Of a DNA stretch of 44,704 nt, positions 8,882 to 44,145 are shown in pieces. The stretch comes from Tepidiformaceae bacterium (GTDB lineage: Bacteria > Chloroflexota > Dehalococcoidia > Tepidiformales > Tepidiformaceae). The number at the start of each line of letters is the position of its first letter. Positions within the stretch are counted from its first letter, which is position 1. The stretch covers positions 1 to 44,704 of the forward strand of contig DATBWD010000247.1 of NCBI GenBank assembly GCA_036515015.1, given 5' to 3'. A program made the position numbers and the translations under genes. The notes under the pieces are model-generated. The model had not been told where the DNA came from, did no database searches, and worked only from the letters and a program-made list of their open reading frames with translations.

Positions 8882-9436
8882 ATGGAGAATTGGACCCACG
8901 CCCGGGCTGTTGCTTTTCAATCCTACGCCCAGCGGACCATCACCGCACTCGGGACCGTCGATGCCGGAGCGGTGGCCGAGGCCGCATGGCACATGCACCG
9001 GGAGCAGCGCATGGGCGCGCACGTGTTCGTCATCGGCAATGGCGGCTCCTTCTCGACGGCCGAGCACATCGCCGCGGATCTCTCGAGATCGGGCGGGGTG
9101 AAGGGCGTCCGGGGGCCGGGCTACCTCGACTGGATCACCGGCCAGGCCAACGACTTCGGCTACGAGAGCATCTTCCAGGCGTACCTCATGATGTGCGCCA
9201 CGCCAGGCGACGTGTTGATCGCATTGTCCGTCAGCAAGCAGAGTCCCAACATCATCTTGGCCTGCCAGTATTGGCAGGAGCGCGGCGACGTCATCGGGTT
9301 GTGGGGGAGGCGATGGCCACAGGGGGCCGACAAGTTTGCCGACGTCAGTATATTTGTCGACGACGACGACCCCAAGGTGGTAGAGACATGCCATCTGGCC
9401 ATCGGCCAGGCTTGGGCCGACATGGTGAGCGCGTGA
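8882..9436 (+). CDS. SIS-domain sugar-phosphate isomerase (phosphoheptose isomerase GmhA-like)
   Basis: The ATG follows TAGGAGG, in frame with track ORF 8801..9436. Motifs VFVIGNGGSFSTAEHIAADL and GDVLIALSVSKQSPNIILA match the SIS fold of GmhA-type isomerases. Confidence 0.75.
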   Translation: MENWTHARAVAFQSYAQRTITALGTVDAGAVAEAAWHMHREQRMGAHVFVIGNGGSFSTAEHIAADLSRSGGVKGVRGPGYLDWITGQANDFGYESIFQAYLMMCATPGDVLIALSVSKQSPNIILACQYWQERGDVIGLWGRRWPQGADKFADVSIFVDDDDPKVVETCHLAIGQAWADMVSA

Positions 9437-10320
9437 GCGACCGCCCCGACGAAGTCCTTGCCCGGCACCCCAACGCCCTGCAGCGCGTGACCATCGCGCA
9501 GGGCTTCTACGCTGAGCGGCTCCGGCCCACAGCCGACCGCACAGTGAAGTTCGTCTGGTATCGGGAGGACTCCGGCGTCCCAGTCTGCTCGGCGAAGTCC
9601 CGGCGCTGCCGCAAGTGCGACCACTACTATCCCCTCGAGGAGAAGAAACTCACCGAGTGCCCGGAGTGCGGCGATCCGCGCTTCTGCCGGACGGGCGTAA
9701 TCAAGCCCGGCGACCGCTGTCGGATGCACGGGGGCGGGGCAAACAAACTCGTCGGCTCGGCCAACCCGTCATTCAAGCACGGCAAGTACTCCCGCTACAT
9801 GCCGGCCCGGCTGGCCGCCAAGTATCTCGAGTCCGCACGGGACCCCGAACTCCTCGCCAATCGCCAGGAGATAGCGGTGCTCGATGCCCGGCTGGCCGAA
9901 CTGCTGGGGCGGGTCGACACCGGGGAATCTAGCCGGCTGTTCTCGCAGGCCAGGGAAGCATTCACGGGGTTTCGCAACGCGTTGGATCGCTCCGACAAGG
10001 AGACCATGCAGATCCACCTGCAGACGCTCGATGCGACGTTGGGGCGTGCGGTGGGTGACTATGCGGCCTGGGACGATATCCGCCAGAGCCTTGAGACCCG
10101 CCGCAAACTCGTCGAGACCGAGATGCGTCGGCTGGAGAAGATGCAGCACTTCCACACGGCCGAGGAATTGCAGAGCCTGCTGACTGCCATCGCCCACATC
10201 GCCAAGCGCGTCATCTCAGACCCAAAGGTGCTGAATGAGTTCACCCTCGCCATTCTGGAACTCGGTCAGCGAGACCCTAGCCGATCTCCTGCGGCCGACG
10301 TACTACCGCGAGGCGCGTGA
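9433..10320 (+). CDS. putative terminase small subunit (zinc-ribbon plus RCxxHGG motif)
   Basis: GTGA overlap, in frame with track ORF 8890..10320. Contains CRKCDHYY...CPECGDPRFC and GDRCRMHGGGANKLVGSANPSFKHGKYS, followed by a long helical region. It lies immediately upstream of the large terminase. The functional call rests on position and memory. Confidence 0.5.
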   Translation: MSDRPDEVLARHPNALQRVTIAQGFYAERLRPTADRTVKFVWYREDSGVPVCSAKSRRCRKCDHYYPLEEKKLTECPECGDPRFCRTGVIKPGDRCRMHGGGANKLVGSANPSFKHGKYSRYMPARLAAKYLESARDPELLANRQEIAVLDARLAELLGRVDTGESSRLFSQAREAFTGFRNALDRSDKETMQIHLQTLDATLGRAVGDYAAWDDIRQSLETRRKLVETEMRRLEKMQHFHTAEELQSLLTAIAHIAKRVISDPKVLNEFTLAILELGQRDPSRSPAADVLPRGA

Positions 10321-11680
10321 CTGGCCAGACGTCAGTCACTACTACAACGCTGAGCGCCATCGATTCTACAAGCCCCACAACCGGGACGAGGCCATAGCGC
10401 TTGTCGACATCATCCACAGGTACATCCTAGCCAAGGGCGGCGAGGGCGGCGGCAAGTCCGTGTTCGGCATCATCAAGGACCTAGAGCGGTTCCGCCGGGG
10501 CTGTCACGGGATCGTCGTCAGTCCAGACTTCGAACACTTCAAGCGGTCCCTATGGCCGGAATTCCGCCGCTGGTGCCCGTGGGACATGGTCCATCCGAAG
10601 CACCGCTACCGCCAGGCACCGGAGTGGGAGCCGACCAAGCCCTTCATGTTGCTCTTTGTCACGGGGGCCGTCGGCTACTTCGGCGGCATCGATAAGGAGA
10701 TGGGCTGGGAAGGCCCGAACGTGAACTTCGCTCACTTCGACGAAGCCCGCCGCAAGGATACCCCGCTGGCCCTGAAAGTGTTGGATGGCCGCGTCCGCAT
10801 CCCCGGCCCGTTGGGCGACCCGCCGCAGATGTGGCTCACCACCACGCCCCGCAAGCATTGGCTCTTTGACTACTTCGGGCCACGCGCCCCAGGTGGCCAG
10901 ACCGACACCTATGCTGCGTTCAAGAGGGACTCGCTCGTTTTTACCCTCATCACCAAAGAGAACGAGGACAACTTGGAGCAGGACTACGCTGCCAAGCGGC
11001 GCCAGTCGCTGACGGAACAGGAGGCCCGGGTGCTCCTCGAGGCGCTATGGGAGGATCTCGAGGACACCTCGCACTTCCTGCCTTCGATGCTTCTCTGGGA
11101 CCTTTGCCAGACGACCATCCCCCCACTCGACGCCTACACGCCGATCGTGGTGAGCCTAGACGGGGCCGTTACCTACGACAACTTCGGCATCACGGCCGTG
11201 AGCCGCCATTGGGAAGAGGCCAGGCACGCGACCGACGTCGCCTTTCGCTTCGTCGAGGCCTGGACGGCTGACCAAGGCCCGATCAACTTCATGGGCACGG
11301 AGGACTATCCTGGCCCTGAGCGCCGCCTGCGCTGGCTCATCAACAACTTCAATGTCGTGCAGGTCTGCTTCGATCCAGCCCAACTGCACGACATGGCGCA
11401 GCGGCTCGGCGTGCCGGGCGACGGGCTGGCGTGGTTTTCCGAGTTCAGCCAGGCGGCGGAGCGGCTGGTGGCCGACAAGCGCCTGCTGGATCTGATCATC
11501 CAGCGCCGGGCGCAGCACGACGGGAATCCGAGCCTGCGGCAGCACATCGAGAATGCCGACAAGAAAGAGGACCCCGAGACCCGGCGGCTACGGATCGTCA
11601 AGCGGCACGAGGCATTGAAGATCGACTTGGCCGTGTCGGGCTCGATGGCTGCCCATCGCTGTCTGGAATTGAATCTGTAG
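10235..11680 (+). CDS. terL: terminase large subunit
   Basis: Walker A-like LAKGGEGGGKS, Walker B-like VNFAHFDEA, and a C-terminal RNaseH-like nuclease region (VVSLDGA...VCFDPAQ). About 480 aa, upstream of the portal. It overlaps the upstream gene by 86 nt, with no later in-frame start seen. Confidence 0.85.
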   Translation: MSSPSPFWNSVSETLADLLRPTYYREARDWPDVSHYYNAERHRFYKPHNRDEAIALVDIIHRYILAKGGEGGGKSVFGIIKDLERFRRGCHGIVVSPDFEHFKRSLWPEFRRWCPWDMVHPKHRYRQAPEWEPTKPFMLLFVTGAVGYFGGIDKEMGWEGPNVNFAHFDEARRKDTPLALKVLDGRVRIPGPLGDPPQMWLTTTPRKHWLFDYFGPRAPGGQTDTYAAFKRDSLVFTLITKENEDNLEQDYAAKRRQSLTEQEARVLLEALWEDLEDTSHFLPSMLLWDLCQTTIPPLDAYTPIVVSLDGAVTYDNFGITAVSRHWEEARHATDVAFRFVEAWTADQGPINFMGTEDYPGPERRLRWLINNFNVVQVCFDPAQLHDMAQRLGVPGDGLAWFSEFSQAAERLVADKRLLDLIIQRRAQHDGNPSLRQHIENADKKEDPETRRLRIVKRHEALKIDLAVSGSMAAHRCLELNL

Positions 11681-11697: not shown

Positions 11698-11711
11698 CAC
11701 CGGGAGAATCG

Positions 11712-14888: not shown

Positions 14889-15446
14889 ATGAATCTGGCG
14901 ATCTGCCTTATCCACAACCGGACGGCGCTACAGAATCGCGGCCAGATCACGGCCATTGCCAATCTGGTCGTTTCCAATTACCTGCCGCTAGGTTCGACCT
15001 CTGAGGAATATGAGGAGAGGTACTACACCATCGCGGGGCTGGCGGTCCCGCACGTCGCCAAGTTCTATCAGGTCCTGCCCTTCGGCGTGAACCGGCCGAA
15101 CAACATGGAGACGCTCGACTCGCACAATGTCATCTACGGTGCGAGGGACGAGAACAAGACGGGTACACATCCCCGCTTTCGTAATTGGTCGATCAAGCGC
15201 GCCTGTGACCACGGCGCGGATGTTGTCGCCCTCGTGACTGACCACGCGCAGTTCACCGTTGCTGGGCTAACCCTCCAAATCGCCCGGCTGGTGGACCGGC
15301 GCTTGCTAGTCCTGCCACTGTGGGGCCTAGCCGTGTCCTGCCGCCTGTTCCCGCTGATCGGCCAGTTCCGGGAGGACCTAAACGCCGTCGACGCCTTGGC
15401 TGATCTTCGGGCGCGCATCCTCGCCGCCGGGTGGGAGGCAGACTGA
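14889..15446 (+). CDS. hypothetical protein (weak GT-A-like motif)
   Basis: The ATG follows AGGAGAA. The gene is visibly more A/T-rich than its neighbours. RFRNWSIKRACDHGADVVALVTDH loosely resembles the RN-x-G...DxD region of GT2 enzymes. Very tentative. Confidence 0.55.
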   Translation: MNLAICLIHNRTALQNRGQITAIANLVVSNYLPLGSTSEEYEERYYTIAGLAVPHVAKFYQVLPFGVNRPNNMETLDSHNVIYGARDENKTGTHPRFRNWSIKRACDHGADVVALVTDHAQFTVAGLTLQIARLVDRRLLVLPLWGLAVSCRLFPLIGQFREDLNAVDALADLRARILAAGWEAD

Positions 15447-21211: not shown

Positions 21212-22654
21212 ATGGACCAGAACGCAATCCTGGAAGCCCTGGCGAAGGCGCTTCTGCCTGTCGTGCAGAAGCACACCACGCCCACGGGCACGCCCTCGAA
21301 CCCATACGTCCACGGCCCGGGTGGGCTGTTCGGCGTCATGGGTCTCGAGCGGGAAGTCATCCACACCCGCCTGCAGCCCGTCGGTTTGGCCGGTATCCTC
21401 CCGGTGCGGCCAAGCGTCGACATGTGGCCCCTGTTTCCCTACATCAGCGGCTTCCGGGATGTGACGGGGGATGTGGCCAACGGAGTCTGCGACGATCCGC
21501 AGACAGCGGGGCCGATGAAGACCTGCCTGCAGACGGCGCCGTTCGGCCGCTACTCGTTCATGACCCGCGAGATGGAAATCAACCGGGTCGGCCAGGTGAT
21601 CAACCGGGGCGAGTTCCTCGACCTGACGCTGATCAACAGCCCGTTGGCGGCGCAGTTGGGGTCCTCGATCTTCCCGACGATCCCAAGCGAGCAGCAGGCC
21701 CTGAAGGGCGCTGAGGTGCTGCAGCGCTTCATCGAGGTCGGCGTGGCGTTCCAGAACCAGTTGGGACGCCAGTTGTATGCCGCCAACCCGGTGAACGACT
21801 CGGCGGGCGGCGGGTACGAGGAATTCAACGGCCTCGATCTGCTGATCGGCACTGGCAAGGTGGACGCCAAGACGGCGATCGCCTGCCCCAGCCTCGACTC
21901 CATCGTCTGGGACTATAACCTGACGAACATCGCCAGCCCCACCGCCAACCCGAACATCGTCACCCTGCTGACCAACATCCTGCGCCGGCTGAACCACATC
22001 GCCACTCGGACGGGGCTACAGCCTCTGGTGCTCACGTTGGCCATGCGGCAGGACCTGTTCTGGGTGATCACGGATCTGTGGGCGTGCGCGTACTACAGCG
22101 ACCGCTGCCAGACCTTGAACAACGCGCAGGTCATGCTCGACGGAACCGAGATGACGACCATCCGGGATGCCATGCGGAATGGCGAGTACCTGCTGGTGGA
22201 CGGCAAGAAGGTCCCGGTGGTCATCGACGACATGATCCCCGAGCAGTCGAGCAACGAGGACGCCGCCATCCCGGTGGGCTGCTTCGCCAGCGACATCTAC
22301 ATCGTCCCGCTGACGGCCCGCGGCATGCCGGTGACCTACTTCGAGCACTTCGACTACCGCGGCGGATCGATGCAGGCGGTGGTCGATGGCCGCATGACGC
22401 AGTACTTCTGGACGGACGGAGGGATCTTCCTCTGGCACGCCAAGCCGCCGCTGAACTGGTGCGTCCAGTGGCTCGGAAAGATCGAGCCGCGGCTGGTGCT
22501 GCGGACGCCGCACCTGTCGGCGCGGATCCTCGACGTGCTGTACTGCCCGCTGGCCCACAGCCGCGACACGCACCCCGATGATCATTACTGGATCGACGGT
22601 GGTGTGACGGAGCGGAGCGTGGATTACTTCTACCACGAGGGTCGGCTGCCGTAA
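21212..22654 (+). CDS. major capsid protein
   Basis: The ATG follows GAGGGAG. 480 aa, downstream of the scaffold-like gene and followed by a strong hairpin. The composition is non-repetitive. The call rests on position plus general resemblance to HK97-fold capsid proteins. Confidence 0.65.
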   Translation: MDQNAILEALAKALLPVVQKHTTPTGTPSNPYVHGPGGLFGVMGLEREVIHTRLQPVGLAGILPVRPSVDMWPLFPYISGFRDVTGDVANGVCDDPQTAGPMKTCLQTAPFGRYSFMTREMEINRVGQVINRGEFLDLTLINSPLAAQLGSSIFPTIPSEQQALKGAEVLQRFIEVGVAFQNQLGRQLYAANPVNDSAGGGYEEFNGLDLLIGTGKVDAKTAIACPSLDSIVWDYNLTNIASPTANPNIVTLLTNILRRLNHIATRTGLQPLVLTLAMRQDLFWVITDLWACAYYSDRCQTLNNAQVMLDGTEMTTIRDAMRNGEYLLVDGKKVPVVIDDMIPEQSSNEDAAIPVGCFASDIYIVPLTARGMPVTYFEHFDYRGGSMQAVVDGRMTQYFWTDGGIFLWHAKPPLNWCVQWLGKIEPRLVLRTPHLSARILDVLYCPLAHSRDTHPDDHYWIDGGVTERSVDYFYHEGRLP

Positions 22655-22663
22655 CCTGACCAC

Positions 22664-22704
22664 GGAGTGAAGGGAGGGGCGGGCAACCGCCCCTCCGTCA
22701 CTCC
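22664..22704 (+). terminator. strong GC hairpin after the capsid gene (terminator or mRNA-stabilising stem)
   Basis: A 10-bp stem (22673-22682 / 22687-22696) around the loop GCAA, extended by a 7-bp stem (22664-22670 / 22698-22704) across a small internal loop. No U-tract follows. Confidence 0.45.
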
Positions 22705-22771
22705 CCGGAGCGCCTAGGGCAGTCGCGCACCTGCCCGAATGCGGTTGCTCCCGGCCGCTGGCGCTCCGGGG
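22703..22771 (+). repeat. 12-bp inverted repeat bracketing about 45 nt
   Basis: CCCCGGAGCGCC (22703-22714) and GGCGCTCCGGGG (22760-22771). Confidence 0.6.
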
Positions 22772-22803
22772 GTTTACGGGAGAGAAAGGCCTCGGGAGGG
22801 CCT

Positions 22804-25012: not shown

Positions 25013-25020
25013 GAGGCATC

Positions 25021-30923: not shown

Positions 30924-32423
30924 ATGGGAAACGAGATCACCGTCGCTGGCGAGAGCCGAGTGTGGCTGGCCGAATTCGGTGCCGGACCTGGGCACGCATT
31001 CGTGTATCAGGGGTGCATGAAGATCGGCGACACTTCCTGGCCGCAGGGCGACATCACCCGGATCGAATGTCCCTCGCCGGACCGGCGCAACGAGTTCGTC
31101 GAGGTAGCGGCCGTGCAGGGGGCGCAGGAACGTGTGAGCACGGAGTTGATGGGGCGCTACCCGCGCGACATCAGCACCCTGCTCGAACTGACCCGGCGCC
31201 GATGCCGCTTCGACATTCAGGTCCACGTCGGCCGCTGCAAGAGCCCGCAGGACTACCTCGGCGGCTGGGACAAGATCAAGGTCTACCGCGAGGCAACGGT
31301 CACGGAGTGGTCCGACGAGAACGCCGGTGCGATCGAGTCGGGTGAGCAGAACCCGACGAACGAGACCGGGGCCATCAGCGCCAAGGACCTCTACGAGATC
31401 GTCCCGATCGCCTTCGCCGAGAAGGCCAAGACGGAGGTCGTGCGGGAGGTCGTGGCCGCTGTGATCTGCGACTCGGCGTCCTGTGGCGACTGCGAGAACC
31501 CGTCGAAGGGCTGCGAGAAGGCGTTCTTCCTGATGGGCGGCACGGGGGCGACTCCGGGCACCAAGCCGGCCGTGGTGTTCACGGGCGACGGCGGGGTGAC
31601 GTGGGGCGTGTCCTACGTCGACAGCATGTTCTCGGACGAGACCCCGACTGGCCTTGCCTGTGTGGGCGGCTACCTCGTGGCGATCTCTGAGACGACCACC
31701 GGCCTGCACTACGCCTCCATCGACGAGATCTTGGCCGGCACCGAGACCTGGGTCGAGATGACCACAGGCTTCGTCGGGGCGATCGAGCCGTTCGCCATCG
31801 CCAGCGCCGGCGCTCGGGCGACGTGGATCGTCGGTGAGGACGGCTACATCTTCTTCGTCCTCGACCCGACCGTGTCGGCCGAGGTGCAGGACGAGGGCGT
31901 GGCGACCAGCCAGGACCTCGCCGACATCGCCGCTCTGGACGGCCGCAACGTGGTGGCCGTGGGCGCCAGCAATGCCGTGGTGTTCACGGACAACGGCGGA
32001 GTGACATGGCAGTCGGTGACTGGCCCGTCAGTGGGCGTGAATCTGACTGCAGTTGTCATGCTCGGGGCCTCGCTCTGGCTGGTGGGCAACGCCAATGGGG
32101 CGCTGTACTTCACCGAGAACGCCGGCGTGTCCTGGACCCAGATCAGCCTGCCCGGCACGCCTACGGTCATCCGCGACATCAAGTTCGTCGACGACGTCGT
32201 CGGCTACCTAGCCTTCGACGCGGCTGGCCCGGCCGGGCGCATTGCCCGGACCGTCGACGGGGGAGCGACCTGGTACATCCTCCCCGAGAAAGCAGTCTCG
32301 GGTGTCATCCCGGCCAACGACCGGATCAACGAGATCGCCGTGTGCCGGGACAACGTCAATCTGATCTTCGCTGGCGGCCTGTCCGACCTGTCGACAGACG
32401 GGATCATCATCAAGGCCGCGTAG
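30924..32423 (+). CDS. putative major tail (tube) protein fused to an Asp-box (BNR) propeller-like domain
   Basis: The ATG follows TAGGAGG. It lies immediately upstream of the chaperone/tape-measure pair. The C-terminal two-thirds carry four Asp-box-like motifs: TGDGGVTW, TDNGGVTW, TENAGVSW, TVDGGATW. Confidence 0.55.
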   Translation: MGNEITVAGESRVWLAEFGAGPGHAFVYQGCMKIGDTSWPQGDITRIECPSPDRRNEFVEVAAVQGAQERVSTELMGRYPRDISTLLELTRRRCRFDIQVHVGRCKSPQDYLGGWDKIKVYREATVTEWSDENAGAIESGEQNPTNETGAISAKDLYEIVPIAFAEKAKTEVVREVVAAVICDSASCGDCENPSKGCEKAFFLMGGTGATPGTKPAVVFTGDGGVTWGVSYVDSMFSDETPTGLACVGGYLVAISETTTGLHYASIDEILAGTETWVEMTTGFVGAIEPFAIASAGARATWIVGEDGYIFFVLDPTVSAEVQDEGVATSQDLADIAALDGRNVVAVGASNAVVFTDNGGVTWQSVTGPSVGVNLTAVVMLGASLWLVGNANGALYFTENAGVSWTQISLPGTPTVIRDIKFVDDVVGYLAFDAAGPAGRIARTVDGGATWYILPEKAVSGVIPANDRINEIAVCRDNVNLIFAGGLSDLSTDGIIIKAA

Positions 32424-37810: not shown

Positions 37811-38688
37811 TGAGCCTAGCGAACATCGTCGTCCTGCACAACCCAGCCACGCTTTGGGAGCGGTACCGCCGCAACATCCCTATCGCCCAGATCGCCGATT
37901 GGAAGATGGTTGAGCGGGAAGAGGGTGGCTACTACTCAGCCACCTTCTCTTTCCGCCCGAAGAGCCGGGAGGACGCGCTGGAGTTCCTCAACAACGGTCC
38001 CGGACGCATGACCGAGTTCTACAACCACCGGGGCATAGGCGACTGGGAGGGGATGGTCAAGCGGGTAAGCATCGACACGGGCATCGTCAAGGTGACCAAT
38101 GACCTTGCCGACATGGCCAACGCGGTGCTGGTGCGCTACTCCCCGGTGGGCGGCGGGTCCCCTACCCGTAGTGCAGTCAAGACGCACGCCGCCAGCCAAA
38201 CTCGGTTCGGAAAGAAGTACTTCGTTCTCTCCGGCGGAGAGTTGGCGGCCGCCGTCGCTGACCAGCGCGCGCAACTGTATCTCGACCAGGTATTCTGGGC
38301 TTCGCCACGGCTAGAGAGCGTCGACCAGGGCGGCAAGTTCAAGGCTGAGGGAATTACCGTCGACGTGCAGTGCATTGGCCTGAGCGAGGCGATGGACTTC
38401 GTGCTCTACAACCAGACGGCACTCACTGGTCAGGTAGACGCCTCCGTAGTCGTGACGGCCATATTCACCAACGCCGAGGTGATGCAGTTCATCAAGTCCT
38501 ACGAGGTGGCGACCAACGTCACGCCGGTCAGTCGGGAGTTCGATAACGATCGCCGCCCGATGGAGATCCTCAAGAGCATCGCGTCTCTCGGCGACAGCAA
38601 CCGCAATCCCTACGTGGTCGGGGTTGAGGGTGACCGGCACGCGTACTTCCGGCAGGGCGTGCCATATCGCATTCCGGGGCAGACATGA
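37810..38688 (+). CDS. minor tail protein
   Basis: TGATG overlap. 292 aa. Position-based call. Confidence 0.55.
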   Translation: MSLANIVVLHNPATLWERYRRNIPIAQIADWKMVEREEGGYYSATFSFRPKSREDALEFLNNGPGRMTEFYNHRGIGDWEGMVKRVSIDTGIVKVTNDLADMANAVLVRYSPVGGGSPTRSAVKTHAASQTRFGKKYFVLSGGELAAAVADQRAQLYLDQVFWASPRLESVDQGGKFKAEGITVDVQCIGLSEAMDFVLYNQTALTGQVDASVVVTAIFTNAEVMQFIKSYEVATNVTPVSREFDNDRRPMEILKSIASLGDSNRNPYVVGVEGDRHAYFRQGVPYRIPGQT

Positions 38689-40172
38689 GGGGCGGACGGA
38701 CTGCGCGCGTTACCGAGGAGCATGGCCGGGTGACGACGGAGATATCGCTACGGCCGGTGGACTACGTGCGCGACGGCGTGCTACGGGAGATCCCTAGCGA
38801 CCTGCTGGATGGGGTGATGGAGGAGCGGCACCCACACGGCTTCGACGCCTTCATGACTGGTGGATTCTGCCGGGAGTTGGACCCGGAAGTGCCCGTGATG
38901 TGGATGCTCGACCGCTTCGATGAGCGGCTCGAGGTCTACGCTCTCAACACCATCCCAACGGTGCTGGGGCAGCGCCGACGGCAGGGCGTGCGGTACCCGA
39001 ATGCCTGGCCGGCAGCGGACTTGGAGTTTGAATACGCCGGTCATCTAGTGCGAAAATTGATCCGTCTGCAGGCCGGCCACCCGCTAGATTTCTCGTTCCG
39101 CTTCAACCGGCAGCCAACGCCGGGGCGCTTTCCGGGCGGCATGGCGTTCAGGGGGATCGAGGTCCCTTCGCCCTACCTCATGGGGCCGGAGGGCCAGAGC
39201 GTGGCGCTACGCTGGAAGCGCACGGGCCTGAGCGAGGTCATGGTCGAACTACCTGTGCGGGATTGGGCTGGTTGGGTGCTCGACCCGACGCTCACCCTAC
39301 AGCCGGACGCTACGGCCGGCAAGGACACGGATATCTGGGAGCAGTTCTCAGATGGACTATCGGGTAGCAATCCAACCCGCGCCTACCTAGAGTTTGGGAA
39401 CCTTCTTGTCTCAGACCGCTTCTCCAAGCCTTTGATTCAGTTCGACCTCTCCACCATCCTGCCCGGAAGCACCATCACCTCCGCTATTTTGAGCGTCTGG
39501 AAAGACAACACGCCATCATCCTTCAGCGGCACCACGACCGCCAGCATTCTCCGCCTGCTCAGGGCGTGGGTCGAGGCGACGACAACCTGGGTCGTATACG
39601 ATACCGGGCTGCCTTGGACTATAGCGGGAGCCGGAGGGTCCGGCACGGATTTCGACCCCACCTCCCTTGGAACCCTCGCCATTCCTGATGACGCGCCCAA
39701 CGGCACCCGCTTCGATGTCGCGCTGACAAACTCCCTCATTCAAGAGATAATTCCCGGCGGAACGATGGCCAACAATGGATTGCTTTTCAACCAGAGCAGC
39801 GCCGGCGACCTCGCGGAAGCCATACGGTCCAGCGACCATGCCACAGCCGCAGAGCGCCCGAAACTGGTAGTGGTATACGACCTGCCAGTGGTCAACCGGC
39901 TGGCAGCCTACTCGGTGAATCTGTGGGACCCGAAGGGCATCATCCGCGACCGGAACGGCAACCCGGTCGATGTGAACGAACTGCACGCCGGGCCATTCAT
40001 CGAACTGCTGGGGGCCGACCTGCCCGGCACAGAGGTGTACCCGAACTTCTTCCAGGACCCCAGCAAGACCAAGATCTCCGAGGTCAGCAAGGGACCGGAG
40101 GGAGCGCGGATCAAGGCGTCGTCCAGCCAATTCGCCGATGCCATCGTGCGCCGAGCAGCGCAGGGGCTATGA
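38685..40172 (+). CDS. minor tail protein with DNRLRE-like (carbohydrate-binding-type) domain
   Basis: ATGA overlap. The central region DTDIWEQ...RFSKPLIQFDLSTILPGSTITSAILSVW...WVEATTTW...NNGLLF...ERPKLVVVY resembles the DNRLRE domain signature (memory-based). This domain is visibly more A/T-rich. Confidence 0.55.
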   Translation: MRGGRTARVTEEHGRVTTEISLRPVDYVRDGVLREIPSDLLDGVMEERHPHGFDAFMTGGFCRELDPEVPVMWMLDRFDERLEVYALNTIPTVLGQRRRQGVRYPNAWPAADLEFEYAGHLVRKLIRLQAGHPLDFSFRFNRQPTPGRFPGGMAFRGIEVPSPYLMGPEGQSVALRWKRTGLSEVMVELPVRDWAGWVLDPTLTLQPDATAGKDTDIWEQFSDGLSGSNPTRAYLEFGNLLVSDRFSKPLIQFDLSTILPGSTITSAILSVWKDNTPSSFSGTTTASILRLLRAWVEATTTWVVYDTGLPWTIAGAGGSGTDFDPTSLGTLAIPDDAPNGTRFDVALTNSLIQEIIPGGTMANNGLLFNQSSAGDLAEAIRSSDHATAAERPKLVVVYDLPVVNRLAAYSVNLWDPKGIIRDRNGNPVDVNELHAGPFIELLGADLPGTEVYPNFFQDPSKTKISEVSKGPEGARIKASSSQFADAIVRRAAQGL

Positions 40173-40413: not shown

Positions 40414-40414
40414 G

Positions 40415-41140
40415 ATGCGAGCATTCGTCGTGGGTGGAGGCCCGAGCCTGAAGCACACCAACCTCGACCGCTTGGTGGGTGAGGTGTCGTTCGCCATGAA
40501 CCGCATCGACCTGGCGTACCAGCCCGACCCGGCCAACGGCATCCGAGGGACCATCTGGCGGCCAACCTACTACCTGTTCGCCGAGCACGTTGGCATTGGC
40601 GTGAAGGCGAGCGCGGATTGGAAGGACTACTCGCAATATGTGCTGCCCTATCACGTGGACGCCGGAGAGACATGCATCATCCGGTCGGTGTTCAAGCCAT
40701 CGCTGGCCCGTGCTGCTGGCGGACGGCTGGATTGGCCGAACGTCACGTGGTTCGATAACGAGGACTGCGAGCACCACAATTGCAACATCCGTAGCGATAA
40801 CCGGCCCTCCCGATGGCACCTGCCGACGCTGTGCGCCTTCGGGGGCACGGTCGGAATCGCCATTCAGATGGCACTGATGTTCGGCTATGACCCCATCTAC
40901 CTCGTCGGCTGCGACCTGGGCTACAAGCCGGTGCGCGGCGGGCCAGACCCCAACCACTTCCACCCGGATTACCACACCTGGGACACGCACCCGCTGCTCG
41001 AGCGGGACGATACGCTGATCTTGATGCACCAGATCGCCGAACAGGAAGTGATCGCACACGGCCGGAGCATCTACAACGCCACGGTCGGCGGCCTGCTCAA
41101 GGTCTATGACCGCGTCGACTACGAGAGCCTGTTCGAATGA
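40415..41140 (+). CDS. MptE/Maf-like (DUF115) protein, putative glycosyltransferase
   Basis: The N-terminal AFVVGGGPSL and the central FGGTVGIAIQMALMFGYDPIYLVGCDLGY...HFHPDY match my memory of the DUF115 Rossmann-like signature. Confidence 0.55.
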   Translation: MRAFVVGGGPSLKHTNLDRLVGEVSFAMNRIDLAYQPDPANGIRGTIWRPTYYLFAEHVGIGVKASADWKDYSQYVLPYHVDAGETCIIRSVFKPSLARAAGGRLDWPNVTWFDNEDCEHHNCNIRSDNRPSRWHLPTLCAFGGTVGIAIQMALMFGYDPIYLVGCDLGYKPVRGGPDPNHFHPDYHTWDTHPLLERDDTLILMHQIAEQEVIAHGRSIYNATVGGLLKVYDRVDYESLFE

Positions 41141-42516
41141 CCGAGAGGGTTCTGGGGACAGATGTCAGCCTGTTCAACGGGCTTGTCTACTGGCCCGGAG
41201 CCAAAGCCGACGGCGTTGTGCACGCGGGCATCCGATGGGGCCAGCGGGACGGGCGCAACGGCTACGCGGATCCGCGCCGGCTCGAGAACTGGTTGGGCGC
41301 CAAGGCCGTCGCCATCGACCGCTACGGCTATTGGGTGTGGGATGAGCGGGCTGGCCACGGCGCTGCAGCCCACATGGCGGGGGTAGTCACGTGCTCGCTG
41401 ACCTACGATGGCGAACTCCCTTTCGTCGTCGACGTCGAACTGCTGCCGCTCCGCTGGGATGAACTACACTCCTTCCTGATCCGGGTCGAGTCGTGGGCCG
41501 GCCGACGGCCGATCATCTACACCGGCTCGTGGTACTACGACATCGTCGACCCACTTCCGGCATGGCTCGAGCAGTACGAGCACTGGCTGACGGGATATAA
41601 TGACGACGGCCCCAGCGTGTGGGGGCCACTTGCAGATCTCGACATCGCCGTCGTAAACTGGCAGCAGTCCAACGCATGGCAGGTGGGCTGGTGTGAGCGC
41701 GGGGCGGCCGACCGTGACTACTGGATCGACGACTATGCGGGCCACATAGGAGGCGAGATGGGCGACAAGGTTGTTCGGACAGAGGACTTGCGGGCATGGC
41801 TGGCGGGCAATGAGTTCGAGGTCGATCCGCCCGCCCCGCCGCCGGTGCCATCCGACGCGCTCTGGCTGGCTTGGCCGTGCGATCCGCCCAAGACGCTGAC
41901 CCAACGGTACGGCATCAACAGGCAGCACTACGCGCAATTCGGGCTACCGGGCCATGAAGGCATCGACTTCCGGGCGCTGACTGGATCGCCGATCTTCGCT
42001 GCGGCGCCTGGCGTGGTGAGCCGGGTGGAGCCGGCCGCCGGGAGTGGGGCCTACGGTGTGCATGTGCGGGTGAAGCACACCCTTGGCCTCGAGGTCTACG
42101 AGACCGTCTACGGCCACTGCCAGGTCGCCAGCCTCCGCGTGGCTCTGGGCGAAGCCGTCGAGCGGGGACAGGTGGTCGGGCTGGCTGACAACACGGGCAA
42201 CTCGAGCGGGCCGCACCTGCACATGACCCTGAAGCACTATGGCAAGGGTAGCCCGTGGATGAACAAGAGCGACATCGTCAACCCGACGGCCTACATGCCA
42301 GACCTCTTCCCGGGCAACGGATGGATCGTGGACATCGCTGGCAACCTGCGCGAGCAGCCCAACGACCAGGCACCCATCATCCGTCTGCTGGCCGCCAACA
42401 CTCTTCTGCAGGCGCTTGCCTTCGGAGGCGAGGGCGGCGACTGGTGGAAGGTTAAGTTCGGGACGCAGGAGGGATGGTTCTGGGAGCCGGGCTACAAACT
42501 GCGGGCGGTGGCTTGA
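41137..42516 (+). CDS. endolysin: GH25-like muramidase + M23 peptidase + SH3-like domain
   Basis: ATGA overlap. The N-terminus GTDVSLFNGLVYWPGAKADGVVHAGIRWG...VVDVE is GH25-like. A PPAPPPVP linker follows. M23 motifs are HEGIDF and GNSSGPHLHMTLKH. The C-terminal WWKVKFGTQEGWFW is SH3b-like. Confidence 0.85.
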   Translation: MTERVLGTDVSLFNGLVYWPGAKADGVVHAGIRWGQRDGRNGYADPRRLENWLGAKAVAIDRYGYWVWDERAGHGAAAHMAGVVTCSLTYDGELPFVVDVELLPLRWDELHSFLIRVESWAGRRPIIYTGSWYYDIVDPLPAWLEQYEHWLTGYNDDGPSVWGPLADLDIAVVNWQQSNAWQVGWCERGAADRDYWIDDYAGHIGGEMGDKVVRTEDLRAWLAGNEFEVDPPAPPPVPSDALWLAWPCDPPKTLTQRYGINRQHYAQFGLPGHEGIDFRALTGSPIFAAAPGVVSRVEPAAGSGAYGVHVRVKHTLGLEVYETVYGHCQVASLRVALGEAVERGQVVGLADNTGNSSGPHLHMTLKHYGKGSPWMNKSDIVNPTAYMPDLFPGNGWIVDIAGNLREQPNDQAPIIRLLAANTLLQALAFGGEGGDWWKVKFGTQEGWFWEPGYKLRAVA

Positions 42517-42824
42517 TGGAACTCCCGCCTCAGTTGCAGTGGGCGCTCGGACCATTCGGCGCGCTGATGATCCTAGGCGTCGTCGCATGGCTTGGATTTA
42601 GGGGACACATCTGGAGCAAGCGCCAGGTGGATCAGGCGACCAATGCCCAGCGCGAAGCCTTCAAGATCGCCGCTAGGGAGATCGGCGAGGCGATGGCGAA
42701 GGGCTTGGAGGACGCTATGACGAGTGCCATCGCAAACGGCGTCCCAGCCATGTACAAGAAGATCCGCAAGTTCGAGAATGGCAAGATCAACGCGGCAGCG
42801 GCCAAGCCAAGGCGCAGGGCGTAG
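42516..42824 (+). CDS. holin-like membrane protein
   Basis: TGATG overlap with the endolysin, in frame with track ORF 42474..42824. It has one TM (WALGPFGALMILGVVAWLGF) and a charged C-terminal tail. Confidence 0.5.
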   Translation: MELPPQLQWALGPFGALMILGVVAWLGFRGHIWSKRQVDQATNAQREAFKIAAREIGEAMAKGLEDAMTSAIANGVPAMYKKIRKFENGKINAAAAKPRRRA

Positions 42825-42840
42825 TTGCCGACGTCGGCAA
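42825..42840. repeat. perfect 16-bp palindrome
   Basis: TTGCCGACGTCGGCAA lies directly after the stop at 42824. Confidence 0.7.
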
Positions 42841-42842
42841 AC

Positions 42843-42956: not shown

Positions 42957-42961
42957 GCGGC

Positions 42962-42990
42962 TTGCCCGGCCGGCTGGCCTGTGGTAGCCT
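42962..42990 (+). promoter_or_regulatory. weak promoter candidate
   Basis: TTGCCC, a 17-nt spacer, then TAGCCT (TAnnnT), in the 79-nt gap upstream of the LCP gene. Confidence 0.25.
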
Positions 42991-43035
42991 GACAGCCGTG
43001 CCGGACCGGGCCTTCCCCCCACGATAGGAGAGCCG

Positions 43036-44145
43036 ATGAAACTACGGGAGTTCGTTCTCGTCCTCTTTGCCTTCCTGCTGGCCGGCTGCGCCCCGGCCAC
43101 GGGCGGGCCGCTGGCGACGGAGGTGGCTGTCCAGGCCACGATCTTCGCCCCCAGCCCCACTCCGCTACAGCCAGTGCCGCCTACGGCTACGCCTGTGCCC
43201 GGCCCCGAGGCGACGTCCTTCGTCCTGCTCGGTCTGGACTCCGACCCGGCCCACCCGGAGCGGAACGCCTACGGCATCCGCACCGACGTGTTCGTGATCG
43301 GCGTTCTAGTCACCTACCCGCAGTGGGACGCGCCGCCCCGACTTGTCCTGTTCAGCCTGCCGCGGGATCTCTACCTGCCCATCGCCTGCGCCGGGGACAC
43401 CCAGACGGGCTCGTGGATCGACCTGCCGGGCCAGTATGCCATCGACCAATCGTTGGCCGACGTGCCTCGAGAAGCCTTCGACCGCATCAACGCCGCCTAC
43501 TACCGGGGCGGGCCAGAGTGTGTGCGAGAGACTATTCGCTGGAACTTCGGGATCACTGTGGACGGGCCAGTGGTGGCGGTCGAGATGGGCAAGTTCGTGG
43601 AAGCCGTTGACGCGCTAGGCGGACTTGACATCACGCCCGGCGAGGACTACGTCGACTTCTGCGGTTACTACCTCGGCACCGACGGCAACGGCGGTGACTG
43701 GCGGCACTGGCGGCCTGGAGTCACCCGCCACCTGACGGGCAATGAGGTTCTCTGCTATGTGCGCGGCCGACGCACGCCAGATGGCGACCTTGACAGGAAC
43801 CGCCGAACCCTCGAGGTACTGCAGGCTGCTCGGCAGCAGTGGACGCCCGAGCACCTGATGAACACCGCTGGGGCCGACGGCGTCGCCACGCTGATGTCCT
43901 GGGCGTGGAACTACGTCACGGTCGACAACTGGATCACGACGATCACATGGAGCGTGGATAACTTCGAGCCACTGCGGCTGGCCGAGATCAATACGGCCCG
44001 CATGCGGCTAGGTGAGACGGTGGAGTTCTACACCACGCCGGGTGGAGCGAGCGTCGTGGTGCCGGCCTTCAATCTGGTCGAGCCGGGCATGGATCAGGCG
44101 GACTACCTCATGCACTGGTTCGGCTGCGGCATCTGGGCCTGCTGA
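43036..44145 (+). CDS. LCP (LytR-CpsA-Psr) family protein with lipoprotein signal peptide
   Basis: The ATG follows TAGGAGAG. The lipobox is FLLAGC. LCP core motifs are FVLLGLDSD...IRTDVFVIGVL...LFSLPRDLYLP...INAAYYRGGPE...VDALGGLDI...LTGNEVLCYVRGRR...DLDRNRR. Confidence 0.75.
   Translation: MKLREFVLVLFAFLLAGCAPATGGPLATEVAVQATIFAPSPTPLQPVPPTATPVPGPEATSFVLLGLDSDPAHPERNAYGIRTDVFVIGVLVTYPQWDAPPRLVLFSLPRDLYLPIACAGDTQTGSWIDLPGQYAIDQSLADVPREAFDRINAAYYRGGPECVRETIRWNFGITVDGPVVAVEMGKFVEAVDALGGLDITPGEDYVDFCGYYLGTDGNGGDWRHWRPGVTRHLTGNEVLCYVRGRRTPDGDLDRNRRTLEVLQAARQQWTPEHLMNTAGADGVATLMSWAWNYVTVDNWITTITWSVDNFEPLRLAEINTARMRLGETVEFYTTPGGASVVVPAFNLVEPGMDQADYLMHWFGCGIWAC

What the first reader, a model, noticed from the sequence alone, without database searches (positions are those of the whole stretch)
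8882..44145. System-level hypothesis: a distributed phage glycopolymer toolkit from precursor activation to wall ligation
Taken together, the window encodes several functional groups. Precursor enzymes are the SIS isomerase at 8882, the GHMP kinase at 23370 and the epimerase at 25182. Tailoring is provided by the SAM methyltransferase at 22804. At least five transferase domains are present: the GT2 at 24359, GT4+GT2+GT2 at 26075, and DUF115 at 40415, with a possible weak GT-A at 14889. Membrane components are at 25021 and 29062. A terminal LCP ligase is at 43036. There are also several glycan-recognising virion domains (Asp-box tube, DNRLRE-like tail protein). That resembles the parts list of a secondary cell-wall polymer or teichoic-acid-like pathway, minus the priming transferase, the flippase or ABC exporter, and the nucleotidyltransferase, which would have to come from the host. 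I am not aware of a phage described as carrying synthesis genes together with an LCP ligase. This is inference from co-occurrence, not demonstrated linkage.
Basis: inference. Interest (0 to 1): 0.75.

Follow-up and report, generated by a model that had tools for sequence, protein, structure and literature searches.

The report
Capsid-linked phage sugar island; separate LCP
An uncultured phage carries a cluster of sugar-making and sugar-transferring genes next to its capsid gene, most likely to coat its own particle with sugars, while its unusual cell-wall "LCP ligase" gene belongs to a separate lysis and envelope module and is not the last step of the same pathway.

Summary
Only the "weak GT-A" at 14889 has no support. 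The LCP gene is phage DNA, not host flank.

The single "precursor to wall ligation" pathway is not supported.
- The gene block 22804-29062 lies directly after the HK97-fold capsid gene. A glycosyltransferase island occupies this slot in 53 of 56 related phage loci.
- None of 632 island ORFs has 4 or more membrane helices, so no flippase, polymerase or priming transferase is encoded.
- The distant SIS gene does co-occur with the kinase (6/6 against 0/14 loci). Both best match the GDP-heptose pathway.
- LCP and DUF115 are inherited with the distal-tail and lysis module. One relative shares that module at 73-92% identity but has a 37% capsid and a 35% glycosyltransferase with different sugar genes. 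Other relatives have the island and no LCP.

Best reading: a virion-glycosylation island of the Corndog/Che8 kind that also makes part of its own heptose precursor. Separately, the phage carries a rare LCP lipoprotein in its lysis cassette, with unknown function. The glycan acceptor is inferred, not shown.

The parts
8882..9436 (+). SIS-domain isomerase, GmhA-like (sedoheptulose-7-P isomerase candidate). It sits just upstream of the terminase genes and is functionally tied to the kinase at 23370.
   Evidence: Pfam SIS_2 at 36 bits. Best NCBIfam match is GmhA at 60 bits, below cut-off. It co-occurs with the GHMP kinase in 6/6 loci against 0/14. 31% identical to Cr30 gp006, annotated 'phosphoheptose isomerase'.
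21212..22654 (+). Major capsid protein (HK97 fold).
   Evidence: AF2 pLDDT 72. Foldseek top hits are the SPO1, SU10 and HK97 capsids, E about 1e-9. More than 700 homologue clusters.
22655..22803 (+). Structured GC-rich spacer (two long hairpins) between the capsid gene and the island. Probably an mRNA stabiliser or partial terminator that sets a lower island expression level.
   Evidence: MFE -95.2 kcal/mol, z = -5.35 against shuffles. No canonical terminator on the + strand. The function is inferred.
22804..23373 (+). SAM-dependent methyltransferase (candidate sugar O-methyltransferase).
   Evidence: Pfam Methyltransf_23, E 4e-10. Homologues in 14 of 56 islands. Other islands carry FkbM or O-methyltransferase types instead.
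23370..24362 (+). GHMP kinase, HddA-like (D-glycero-D-manno-heptose-7-P kinase candidate).
   Evidence: GHMP_kinases_N and C. Best NCBIfam match is HddA, 128 bits over the full length, below cut-off. 35% identical to Cr30 gp008, annotated 'D,D-heptose 7-phosphate kinase'.
24359..25012 (+). Single-domain GT2-type (GT-A fold) glycosyltransferase.
   Evidence: 15 of 19 family members hit Pfam GT2. TY..R, DDGS and EDD motifs are invariant. Homologues in 45 of 56 islands.
25021..25185 (+). 54-aa ORF with one membrane helix. Coupled to its neighbours but lineage-specific, so its link to the island is doubtful.
   Evidence: One predicted helix. No homologue in 92 related loci.
25182..26084 (+). SDR nucleotide-sugar epimerase or dehydratase.
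   Evidence: Pfam Epimerase at 200 bits. Best NCBIfam match is GalE, below cut-off. PHROG 540, nucleotide-sugar epimerase.
26075..29062 (+). 995-aa soluble trifunctional glycosyltransferase (GT4 + GT2 + GT2) with a roughly 200-aa C-terminal region of unknown role. This is the conserved core of the island.
   Evidence: Pfam. PDB sequence hits to chondroitin and heparosan synthases, PglI and SpsA. No membrane helix. Homologue in 49 of 56 loci, and always between the capsid gene and the 402-aa gene (24 of 24).
29059..29391 (+). DUF1360 small membrane protein. Part of the structural backbone, not of the glycan island.
   Evidence: Pfam DUF1360. Retained in L040, which has capsid gene, DUF1360, 402-aa gene and tube gene but no island.
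29404..30612 (+). Conserved 402-aa protein of unknown function that follows the island. Virion or connector protein by position.
   Evidence: Syntenic in 25 loci. No family or PDB match.
30924..32423 (+). Major tail (tube) protein by position, with a C-terminal BNR/Ycf48-like beta-propeller. Candidate glycan acceptor or binder.
   Evidence: PSII_BNR at 38.8 bits. PDB Ycf48 hits. Sits before a chaperone-sized gene and the tape measure gene.
38685..40172 (+). Tail fibre-like protein with a DNRLRE domain.
   Evidence: NCBIfam DNRLRE_dom at 58.5 bits against a cut-off of 34.
40415..41140 (+). DUF115/MptE-like protein with a Maf/CstII sialyltransferase-like fold. It sits among the tail-fibre genes and is inherited with the tail and lysis module.
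   Evidence: AF2 pLDDT 92. Foldseek hits 5MU5 (E 2e-5) and CstII. Present in L104 and L105, absent in L103 and L106.
41137..42516 (+). Endolysin (GH25 muramidase + M23 peptidase + SH3_3).
   Evidence: Pfam. PHROG endolysin families.
42516..42824 (+). 102-aa membrane protein with one helix and a helical tail (holin-like or Rz-like).
   Evidence: One helix. Weak PHROG hit to Rz-like spanin, E 0.008. A gene of similar size is called between the lysin and the LCP gene in L103 (127 aa) and L104 (131 aa).
43036..44145 (+). LCP-family lipoprotein of a phage-specific clade. All hallmark Asp and Arg residues are kept. It is extracytoplasmic and part of the lysis and envelope module.
   Evidence: Pfam 62.8 bits; NCBIfam LCP domain. 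D68, D84, R110, D111, R243, R245, D251 and R254 are invariant, and the lipobox is conserved. It always follows the lysin and a small gene called just after it.
44145..44704 (+). 5' part of a 267-aa Cys-rich lipoprotein gene that runs off the window. It partners the LCP gene, and in a relative it is fused to a polysaccharide deacetylase.
14889..15446 (+).
   Evidence: No hit in Pfam, NCBIfam, PHROGs or PDB, and no homologue in relatives.

Best explanation
The window holds two independent glycan-related modules, not one pathway.

Module 1 is the gene block 22804-29062 plus the remote SIS gene at 8882. It is a cytoplasmic glycosylation island that belongs to the head-assembly gene block.
- The GmhA-like isomerase and the HddA-like kinase divert sedoheptulose-7-P toward an activated heptose. 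The host must supply the phosphatase and the nucleotidyltransferase.
- The SDR enzyme and the methyltransferase tailor the sugar.
- The GT2 and the trifunctional GT4+GT2+GT2 enzyme build a short, probably methylated, heptose-containing glycan.
- The acceptor is most likely a virion protein (capsid and/or tail tube) modified in the cytoplasm before or during assembly. This is what mycobacteriophages Corndog and Che8 do.

Module 2 is the lysis and envelope block at 40415-44704 and beyond. It comprises the Maf-like transferase, the endolysin, a small membrane protein, the LCP lipoprotein, a Cys-rich lipoprotein and a multi-helix membrane protein. The LCP is exported and acts on the host wall glycopolymer-peptidoglycan linkage, independently of the island.

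Shown: the domain identities, the synteny, the co-occurrence pattern and the modular inheritance.
Inferred: the acceptor of the island glycan, the heptose chemistry and what the LCP does.
For: - The capsid identity is confirmed by fold.
- Genes from 22804 to 29391 overlap or nearly abut, and they follow the capsid gene after a structured spacer with no + strand terminator.
- A glycosyltransferase island fills the same slot in 53 of 56 related loci. The order capsid gene, multi-glycosyltransferase, 402-aa gene holds in 24 of 24.
- Island contents vary like a surface-glycan locus: PseB-like dehydratase, DegT aminotransferase, RmlD-like, FkbM and O-methyltransferases, radical SAM, and HddA- or HldE-like enzymes.
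- No ORF among 632 has 4 or more membrane helices, so the chemistry is cytoplasmic.
- SIS and GHMP co-occur (Fisher p = 1.3e-4).
- Relative L013 has a fuller enzyme set: a GmhB-like HAD (110 bits) next to its SIS gene, and an NTP_transf_3 gene (a weak Pfam hit) in its island.
- Cr30 carries the same partial set of isomerase, kinase, epimerase and glycosyltransferase.
- Precedent: Corndog has an O-methyltransferase and three glycosyltransferase genes inside its head gene block (PMC4351075). [quoted passage not shown]
- Modular inheritance: against contig IMGVR_UViG_3300031949_000055, LCP is 73%, DUF115 83%, p267 87% and the tail genes 80-92% identical, but the capsid is 37%, the multi-glycosyltransferase 35% and the tube 40%.
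- The LCP gene always sits after the lysin and a small gene called just after it.
Against: - No glycosylated residue or acceptor motif could be identified.
- Capsid proteins of the two island-less relatives (L040, L058) do not differ visibly from the rest.
- The glycosyltransferases have no detectable sequence homology to mycobacteriophage ones.
- GT2 and GT4 enzymes equally fit lipid-linked acceptors, and the closest solved GT2 relatives are polysaccharide synthases.
- The GmhA and HddA assignments are best hits below the curated cut-offs.
- GmhB and HddC are missing from this phage.
- The co-occurrence statistics ignore phylogenetic non-independence.
- At least part of the genome (beyond 63 kb) was not seen.
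Confidence: 0.5

Rival explanations
1. One distributed pathway builds a teichoic-acid-like or secondary wall polymer on host lipid carrier. The host primes and exports it, and the phage LCP ligates it to peptidoglycan.
For: All the parts coexist in this genome and in its 76%-capsid relative. The LCP keeps its catalytic motifs and is exported. The missing steps could come from the host.
Against: LCP and the island are inherited separately. LCP-bearing relatives carry chemically different islands, with a DegT aminotransferase in place of the heptose genes. Most island-bearing relatives lack the LCP. No island in 92 loci encodes a flippase, polymerase or priming transferase. The island sits in the late structural operon, and no integrase or lysogeny module was seen.
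Confidence: 0.08
2. The island modifies a host envelope glycan by adding sugars to host lipid-linked intermediates on the cytoplasmic face. This could mask receptors, exclude superinfecting phage or protect progeny from cell debris. The LCP is not needed.
For: The GT2 and GT4 domains resemble polysaccharide-building enzymes. PHROG matches are to 'moron/host takeover' glycosyltransferases. Variable island content resembles O-antigen loci.
Against: The island holds a fixed position between the capsid and connector/tail genes across a family with capsid identity down to 37%. It is inherited with the head module and not with the host-interaction module. Known serotype-converting phages carry membrane Gtr-type or polymerase genes, and none is present here. 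Expression from a late operon is poorly timed for exclusion.
Confidence: 0.2
3. The island hypermodifies phage DNA with sugars (for example heptosyl-5hmC) as an anti-restriction measure.
For: Phage glycosyltransferase clusters, including one heptose-installing set, glycosylate 5hmC, and some lie near structural genes (bioRxiv 10.1101/2023.12.21.572611). This phage encodes a C5-cytosine methylase and other DNA methylases.
Against: No TET/JBP-type (5mYOX) or thymidylate-synthase-like hydroxymethylase was found in 63 kb or in any island family scanned. The C5 methylase lies about 20 kb downstream of the island, on the other strand. Sugar O-methyltransferases and three- to four-enzyme glycan assembly fit a protein or glycan product better.
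Confidence: 0.1
4. On the LCP alone: it is a lysis accessory, analogous in role to mycobacteriophage LysB or to spanins. It would sever or short-circuit the glycopolymer-peptidoglycan linkage that tethers an outer layer.
For: Its position is invariant: after the endolysin and a small gene called just after it, and before a Cys-rich lipoprotein that is fused to a polysaccharide deacetylase in a relative. The preceding gene gives a weak Rz-like hit. The LCP is inherited with the lysis and tail module.
Against: No LCP is known to run in a hydrolytic direction in vivo. The host and its envelope type are unknown, because the MAG labels conflict. Many relatives lyse without it.
Confidence: 0.3

Closest known systems
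Mycobacteriophage virion glycosylation (Corndog gp35-38, Che8, Myrna; Freeman et al. 2023, Cell Host Microbe, known here through PMC11600133, PMC12363180 and PMC4351075)
   Same: Methyltransferase and glycosyltransferase genes are embedded in the head-assembly gene block of a siphovirus. All enzymes are soluble, and there are no export genes.
   Different: This island is larger. It encodes sugar-precursor enzymes (isomerase, kinase, epimerase) and a 995-aa trifunctional glycosyltransferase. [quoted passage not shown] No sequence homology to those phages was found. Glycosylation is not demonstrated here.
Autonomous capsid glycosylation of giant viruses (PBCV-1 A064R-type multidomain glycosyltransferase/methyltransferase; Mimivirus sugar-nucleotide genes). 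From my own knowledge, not tested.
   Same: Virus-encoded multidomain glycosyltransferases, methylation and nucleotide-sugar tailoring, used to decorate the virion.
   Different: Those are eukaryotic viruses with unrelated capsids. Here the pathway is only partial and depends on the host.
GDP-D-glycero-alpha-D-manno-heptose pathway (GmhA, HddA, GmhB, HddC), as in the Aneurinibacillus S-layer glycan and Campylobacter capsule (own knowledge for the biology)
   Same: The SIS and GHMP proteins best match GmhA and HddA. They co-occur. Relative L013 adds a GmhB-like HAD and a nucleotidyltransferase.
   Different: Scores are far below the equivalog cut-offs. This phage lacks GmhB and HddC. Another relative uses an HldE-like enzyme instead.
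Caulobacter phage Cr30 gp006-gp010 (annotated phosphoheptose isomerase, heptose-7-P kinase, glycosyltransferase, nucleotide-sugar epimerase)
   Same: The same partial enzyme set in an isolated phage. It is 31%, 35% and 28% identical to the window's SIS, kinase and epimerase proteins.
   Different: Cr30 is a T4-like myovirus. Its genes are contiguous in a non-structural region, and their function is uncharacterised as far as I could find.
LCP (LytR-CpsA-Psr) glycopolymer-peptidoglycan ligases (TagT/U/V, LcpA/MsrR, Cps2A)
   Same: The domain scores above the Pfam cut-off. The Asp and Arg motifs are conserved. The location is extracytoplasmic.
   Different: It is lipoprotein-anchored and not anchored by a membrane helix. 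It has clade-specific Cys residues and an insertion. It forms a small phage-only clade, at most 36% identical over part of its length to cellular LCPs. It is encoded in a lysis cassette. No LCP was found in PHROGs or in genuine isolated phages.
Phage DNA sugar-hypermodification gene clusters (Pyle et al., bioRxiv 10.1101/2023.12.21.572611)
   Same: Phage glycosyltransferase and epimerase clusters, with heptose among the sugars installed.
   Different: Those clusters neighbour C5-methyltransferase/5mYOX or ThyS genes. None is near this island.
Maf flagellin glycosyltransferases and CstII (GT42) sialyltransferases
   Same: The predicted fold of the 40415 protein matches them best.
   Different: About 14-17% identity and TM-score about 0.5. 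This phage has no CMP-sugar synthesis genes. The acceptor is unknown.

Membership tests
LCP (LytR_cpsA_psr) family | LCP domain scoring above the curated threshold | tested here: met
   Pfam PF03816 at 62.8 bits against 24.6. The NCBIfam TIGR00350 domain model scores 53.7 against 62.3, slightly below.
LCP (LytR_cpsA_psr) family | Conserved Asp and Arg residues that bind pyrophosphate and Mg (GxD...R(S/T)D, PRD, RxR...GD..R..R motifs) | tested here: met
   D68, D84, R110, D111, R243, R245, D251 and R254 are invariant across phage and cellular sequences. The functional role of these residues is from my own knowledge.
LCP (LytR_cpsA_psr) family | Extracytoplasmic catalytic domain tethered to the membrane | tested here: met
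   N-terminal signal with a conserved lipobox Cys and a Pro/Thr linker. Prediction only.
LCP (LytR_cpsA_psr) family | Transfers a lipid-PP-linked glycopolymer to peptidoglycan | not testable with these tools
   Needs biochemistry.
   No polytopic membrane protein in the window, its flanks, or 632 island ORFs.
   Same as above.
   Modular mosaic and independent presence and absence.
GDP-heptose pathway (GmhA/HddA/GmhB/HddC) | GmhA isomerase | tested here: inconclusive
   GmhA models are the best hits, but at 60 bits against cut-offs of 209 and above.
GDP-heptose pathway (GmhA/HddA/GmhB/HddC) | HddA kinase | tested here: inconclusive
   Best hit is HddA over the full length, 128 bits against a cut-off of 600. 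The next best is fucokinase at 76 bits.
GDP-heptose pathway (GmhA/HddA/GmhB/HddC) | GmhB phosphatase and HddC nucleotidyltransferase | tested here: not met
   Absent from the window and 19 kb of flanks. Present in relative L013.
GDP-heptose pathway (GmhA/HddA/GmhB/HddC) | Isomerase and kinase occur together | tested here: met
   6/6 against 0/14 loci; p = 1.3e-4 in the conservative count. Not corrected for phylogeny.
Phage virion-glycosylation system (Corndog/Che8 type) | Glycosyltransferase and methyltransferase genes inside the virion structural operon | tested here: met
   Directly after the HK97-fold capsid gene and before the tail genes. Conserved in 53 of 56 loci.
Phage virion-glycosylation system (Corndog/Che8 type) | Glycans attached to capsid or tail-tube subunits | not testable with these tools
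   Needs virion mass spectrometry or glycan staining.
Phage virion-glycosylation system (Corndog/Che8 type) | Sequence relationship to the characterised mycobacteriophage glycosyltransferases | tested here: not met
   tblastn of the 995-aa glycosyltransferase against 50,697 phage records gave no mycobacteriophage hit at E <= 1e-8. Analogy, not homology.
Phage DNA sugar-hypermodification cluster | 5mYOX/TET or ThyS-type hydroxymethylase near the glycosyltransferase | tested here: not met
   None in the precomputed or run Pfam scans of 63 kb or of the island families.
GT2 glycosyltransferase (24359-25012) | GT-A signature (DDGS nucleotide-binding motif, DxD) and family membership | tested here: met
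   15 of 19 homologues hit PF00535 and the motifs are invariant. The window protein itself has no direct Pfam hit.
PF01973 / Maf-like transferase (40415-41140) | Fold of Maf/GT42 sialyltransferase-like enzymes | tested here: met
   Foldseek 5MU5 at E 2e-5 and CstII at about 2e-4 on a model with pLDDT 92. Pfam is below cut-off for the window protein, but many homologues carry PF01973.

The most novel reading that the evidence does not exclude
Two unreported things may be true at once.

(i) A large uncultured siphovirus family routinely coats its virions with diverse, self-tailored glycans (heptose, amino sugars, O-methyl sugars), using a hypervariable island fixed next to the capsid gene. Some members encode part or all of a nucleotide-heptose pathway.

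(ii) A sublineage has recruited an LCP phosphotransferase as an exported phage effector in its lysis cassette. It would either release or re-route the wall glycopolymer that tethers an outer layer, or mask receptors on lysed-cell debris. This would be the first phage-encoded LCP with a role in infection.
Probability: 0.3. Interest if true: 0.8.

Novelty: new variant of a known kind. Interest (0 to 1): 0.6.

Why it matters
Virion glycosylation has been demonstrated in only a few mycobacteriophages among bacterial viruses. There it changes antibody recognition. This finding suggests it is the default state of a large environmental phage family, with capsid homologues in more than 700 protein clusters. 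It also suggests O-antigen-like diversification of the glycan, with the phage making part of its own activated heptose. That would change how phage surfaces are viewed in defence evasion, particle stability and adsorption. It would also provide a set of soluble multidomain glycosyltransferases. Separately, an LCP enzyme conserved inside a phage lysis cassette has no described precedent. It could reveal a new step in lysing bacteria whose outer layers are anchored through wall glycopolymers. The result also shows that co-occurrence in one genome was misleading: the parts belong to two modules that recombine freely.

Tried and rejected
- Megablast of the whole window against INPHARED found no match.
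- tblastn of the LCP against isolated phages gave only weak hits in records that look like host-DNA contamination.
- Host assignment from MAG labels of relatives failed. The labels conflict (Methanothrix, Paceibacterota, Anaerolineae, Gemmatimonadota and others), so they were rejected as binning noise.
- I could not close the genome as a circle. The flanks do not overlap, so the genome is at least 63 kb.
- I compared capsid proteins from island-less relatives (L040, L058) for a missing acceptor segment and found none.
- The 14889 ORF as a GT-A or nucleotidyltransferase has no support.
- The tail-protein-anchored IMG/VR scan and the p267-anchored metagenome scan returned only 6 and 7 loci. The LCP-absence sample is therefore small.
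- Promoter and terminator consensus scans around the island were uninformative.
- PDB sequence searches of the 402-aa protein and of p217 found nothing.
- I could not read Freeman et al. 2023 directly and used papers that cite it.
- Literature searches for phage-encoded LCP and for Cr30 heptose genes found nothing relevant.
- My first label for the common post-capsid SDR, "HldD-like", was wrong. NCBIfam shows it is PseB/FnlA-like.

Full report
**What the window is.** The 44.7-kb window has about 65% G+C, all genes on the + strand and no tRNA. It has no nucleotide match among 50,697 deposited phage genomes. It reads as a siphovirus late region:
- large terminase (10235-11680) and a portal-sized gene;
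- a 1032-aa repeat-containing head protein and a scaffold/protease-sized gene;
- a 480-aa protein at 21212-22654;
- the sugar gene block, then a 402-aa protein and a 499-aa protein with a BNR propeller;
- a tape measure protein (PF20155) and distal tail genes;
- an endolysin, a small membrane protein and the LCP gene.

I confirmed that the 480-aa protein is the major capsid protein. An AlphaFold model built from 34 homologues (pLDDT 72) matches HK97-fold capsids of SPO1, SU10, HK97 and many others at E about 1e-9.

**Is the LCP gene host DNA?** No. The identical LCP protein lies on at least 20 metagenome contigs. Six loci (99.9% identical to the window) continue past it into a 267-aa gene, a 129-aa gene and then minus-strand RecU, C5-DNA methylase and MT-A70 genes. 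Upstream of the window there are about 9 kb of small ORFs. No integrase was seen in the 63 kb covered. The two flanks do not overlap, so the genome is at least 63 kb.

**Checking the observation.** The domain calls are essentially right. Details are in the observation check. Three needed extra work.
- The "GT2 at 24359" has no direct Pfam hit. It belongs to a family found in 45 of 56 related islands. Of 19 members scanned, 15 hit Pfam GT2, and the TY..R, DDGS and EDD motifs are invariant.
- The "DUF115" scores below the Pfam cut-off. It has 171 homologues, many carrying PF01973. Its model (pLDDT 92) best matches the Maf flagellin glycosyltransferase and CstII sialyltransferases.
- The "weak GT-A at 14889" has no support of any kind.

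**The island belongs to the head module and is nearly universal in the family.** The capsid protein has more than 700 homologue clusters at 49% identity or above. I fetched 92 capsid-anchored loci from IMG/VR, MAGs and assemblies.
- Of the 56 loci with at least 6 kb downstream, 53 carry at least one glycosyltransferase homologue after the capsid gene. Forty-nine have a homologue of the 995-aa trifunctional enzyme, 45 a p217-type GT2 and 41 an SDR enzyme.
- In all 24 loci that also show the 402-aa gene, the order is capsid gene, multi-glycosyltransferase, 402-aa gene.
- In the window, the genes from 22804 to 29391 overlap or nearly abut. They follow the capsid gene after a 149-nt spacer that folds into strong hairpins (z = -5.35), with no + strand terminator.
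- DUF1360 is retained in L040, which has no island, so it is backbone and not a glycan component.

**Island content varies like a surface-glycan locus, and it is entirely cytoplasmic.** Clustering the 632 ORFs between the capsid gene and the 402-aa gene (or the locus end), then scanning representatives, gave:
- PseB/FnlA-like 4,6-dehydratases (the commonest);
- DegT aminotransferases and RmlD-like reductases;
- FkbM-type and other O-methyltransferases, and a radical-SAM enzyme;
- HddA-like GHMP kinases in 20 loci;
- an HldE-like bifunctional enzyme in one locus.

No ORF has 4 or more predicted membrane helices. The only recurrent membrane protein is DUF1360. Cell-surface polysaccharide loci normally encode a priming transferase, a flippase or polymerase, or an exporter. 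Their absence from about 50 diversified islands argues for a cytoplasmic acceptor.

**The "distributed" part that is real: a heptose branch.** The SIS protein best matches GmhA, and the GHMP kinase best matches HddA over its full length. Both score below the curated cut-offs.
- Relative L013 (58% capsid identity) has a GmhB-like HAD phosphatase (110 bits) next to its SIS gene, and an NTP_transf_3 gene (a weak Pfam hit) in its island. That would give all four steps of the pathway, the nucleotidyltransferase step only tentatively.
- Relative L014 has an HldE-like enzyme instead.
- Where the region upstream of the terminase is covered, SIS is present in 6 of 6 genomes with the kinase and in 0 of 14 without it. 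One further locus has SIS, but too little downstream sequence to see a kinase. Fisher p = 1.3e-4 counting that locus as discordant. This is not corrected for phylogeny.
- This phage has no GmhB, HddC or HldE homologue in 63 kb.
- The same partial set (isomerase, kinase, epimerase, glycosyltransferase) is annotated in Caulobacter phage Cr30 gp006-gp010, at 28-35% identity. A two-step phage contribution is therefore recurrent, not an artefact.

**LCP and DUF115 belong to a different module.** The LCP protein has only about 17 close clusters (33-96% identity). After that, similarity drops to cellular LCPs with weak partial matches.
- The phage clade keeps every hallmark Asp and Arg residue and a lipobox, and it adds conserved cysteines.
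- In three diverged relatives the LCP gene sits immediately after the endolysin and a small gene called just after it. Wherever sequence continues, it is followed by a Cys-rich lipoprotein (p267) and a multi-helix membrane protein.
- In L112/L119, p267 is fused to a polysaccharide deacetylase, and there is no LCP.
- Only 2 IMG/VR contigs carry this LCP, against 152 with the capsid.
- L116 and L117 also have no detectable LCP in the 1.6-2.5 kb of flank available upstream of p267.
- DUF115 is present in L104 and L105 but absent in the LCP-bearing L103 and L106.

The decisive case is contig IMGVR_UViG_3300031949_000055. Its identities to the window are:

| Protein | Identity to window |
|---|---|
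| p684 (tail) | 80-87% |
| p292 (tail) | 92% |
| p495 (tail) | 85% |
| DUF115 | 83% |
| LCP | 73% |
| p267 | 87% |
| Capsid | 37% |
| Multi-glycosyltransferase | 35% |
| DUF1360 | 40% |
| 402-aa protein | 36% |
| Tube | 40% |

Its island holds a DegT aminotransferase and has no heptose genes. So the island travels with the head and tube genes, while LCP and DUF115 travel with the receptor-binding and lysis genes.

**Most likely mechanism.** By position, operon structure, soluble enzymes, recurrent sugar methylation and inheritance with the capsid, the island most resembles phage virion glycosylation. Corndog carries an O-methyltransferase and three glycosyltransferase genes inside its head gene block (PMC4351075). 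[quoted passage not shown] 2023, as reported in PMC11600133 and PMC12363180). I propose the following steps:
1. The GmhA-like and HddA-like enzymes push sedoheptulose-7-P toward an activated heptose. Host enzymes finish the activation.
2. The SDR enzyme and the methyltransferase tailor the sugar.
3. The GT2 and the trifunctional enzyme assemble a short glycan on capsid and/or tube subunits in the cytoplasm.

All of this is inference. I found no acceptor motif, and the capsids of the two island-less relatives look the same as the rest.

The LCP is best seen as an exported envelope effector of the lysis module. Its actual reaction (ligation, pyrophosphatase, release of polymer, or receptor masking) cannot be decided here.

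**Rivals.**
- Modification of host lipid-linked glycans remains possible. The GT2 domains resemble polysaccharide synthases. But this fits the head-module linkage and the lack of membrane enzymes poorly.
- DNA glycosylation is a real alternative, because phage clusters can put heptose on 5hmC. No hydroxymethylase was found near the island or elsewhere in the 63 kb.

**Novelty.** No phage LCP appears in PHROGs, in genuine isolated phages or in the searchable literature. Virion glycosylation itself is known. The new elements are its scale, its fixed hypervariable slot, and the phage-encoded heptose and other sugar pathways in an uncultured family. I rate it a new variant of a known kind, with a separate unexplained LCP element.

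Noticed in passing
window 3182-4317: Six copies of a 21-37-nt motif (CCGGGGGAGGAGGGGACGTGA) lie at the junctions of small early genes. It is a strong ribosome-binding site plus a GTG start. It gives neighbouring ORFs '...EPPGEEGT' C-termini and 'GGGGDV' N-termini. It is reminiscent of start-associated sequences in some actinobacteriophages.
   Followed up: partly
window 16629-17202 and 17717-17789 (inside ORF 15431-18529): 60-nt (20-aa) tandem repeats, 'ETDLAQAI..VL(K/R)..', and a 33-nt repeat lie inside the 1032-aa head protein. Its N-terminus matches PHROG 14065 and weakly matches a lectin/lyase-like domain.
   Followed up: partly
window ~17700-17850 and ~20900-21050: A roughly 45-aa segment, GYE(N/D)LVADIA.AVTKAINLPGL.EYLK.QDARV.AIEKGP, is shared by the 1032-aa head protein and the 676-aa scaffold/protease-sized protein. 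It may be a common capsid-targeting or docking peptide.
   Followed up: no
window 22655-22803: Very stable GC-rich hairpins sit right after the capsid stop codon (-95 kcal/mol, z = -5.35). They are a likely mRNA stabiliser or attenuator separating capsid expression from island expression.
   Followed up: partly
window 44145-44704 (continues in L001 11110-11913); L112 17032-18273: The gene after the LCP gene encodes a Cys-rich lipoprotein with no family match. In a relative the same domain is fused to a polysaccharide deacetylase (PF01522). This points to a set of secreted wall-acting proteins behind the lysis genes.
   Followed up: partly
window 42516-42824: The small membrane protein between the lysin and the LCP gene gives a weak Rz-like spanin hit (E 0.008). 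It is followed by lipoprotein genes, which hints at a host with an outer layer. The host is unknown, and the MAG labels of relatives conflict.
   Followed up: no
window 853-1257, ~6139-6360, 7306-8625; L001 15012-16804: Other genes noted: an ASCH-domain protein, a small ORF with a Pfam Acb5 hit, a 439-aa N6/N4 DNA methylase, and (downstream of the window) a C5-cytosine methylase and an MT-A70 methylase. Together they suggest a heavy investment in DNA methylation and possibly anti-defence.
   Followed up: no
L122 (Caulobacter phage Cr30, NC_025422.1 2793-6532): Cr30 gp006-gp010 encode a phosphoheptose isomerase, a heptose-7-P kinase, a glycosyltransferase and an epimerase. They are homologous to the window's set and also have no adjacent GmhB or HddC. 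I found no functional study of them.
   Followed up: partly
L014 12605-14065; L013 2256-3300 and 15701-16351: Relatives use alternative heptose routes. One has an HldE-like enzyme with its adenylyltransferase and kinase domains in swapped order. Another has a fuller GmhA, GmhB, HddA and nucleotidyltransferase (weak Pfam hit) set.
   Followed up: partly
L020 (JBAZJI010000002.1, 85.5-kb contig) and IMG/VR contigs of 70-102 kb: Some capsid relatives lie on much longer contigs (up to 102 kb). They could be larger phages or integrated prophages. This was not examined and could help name hosts.
   Followed up: no
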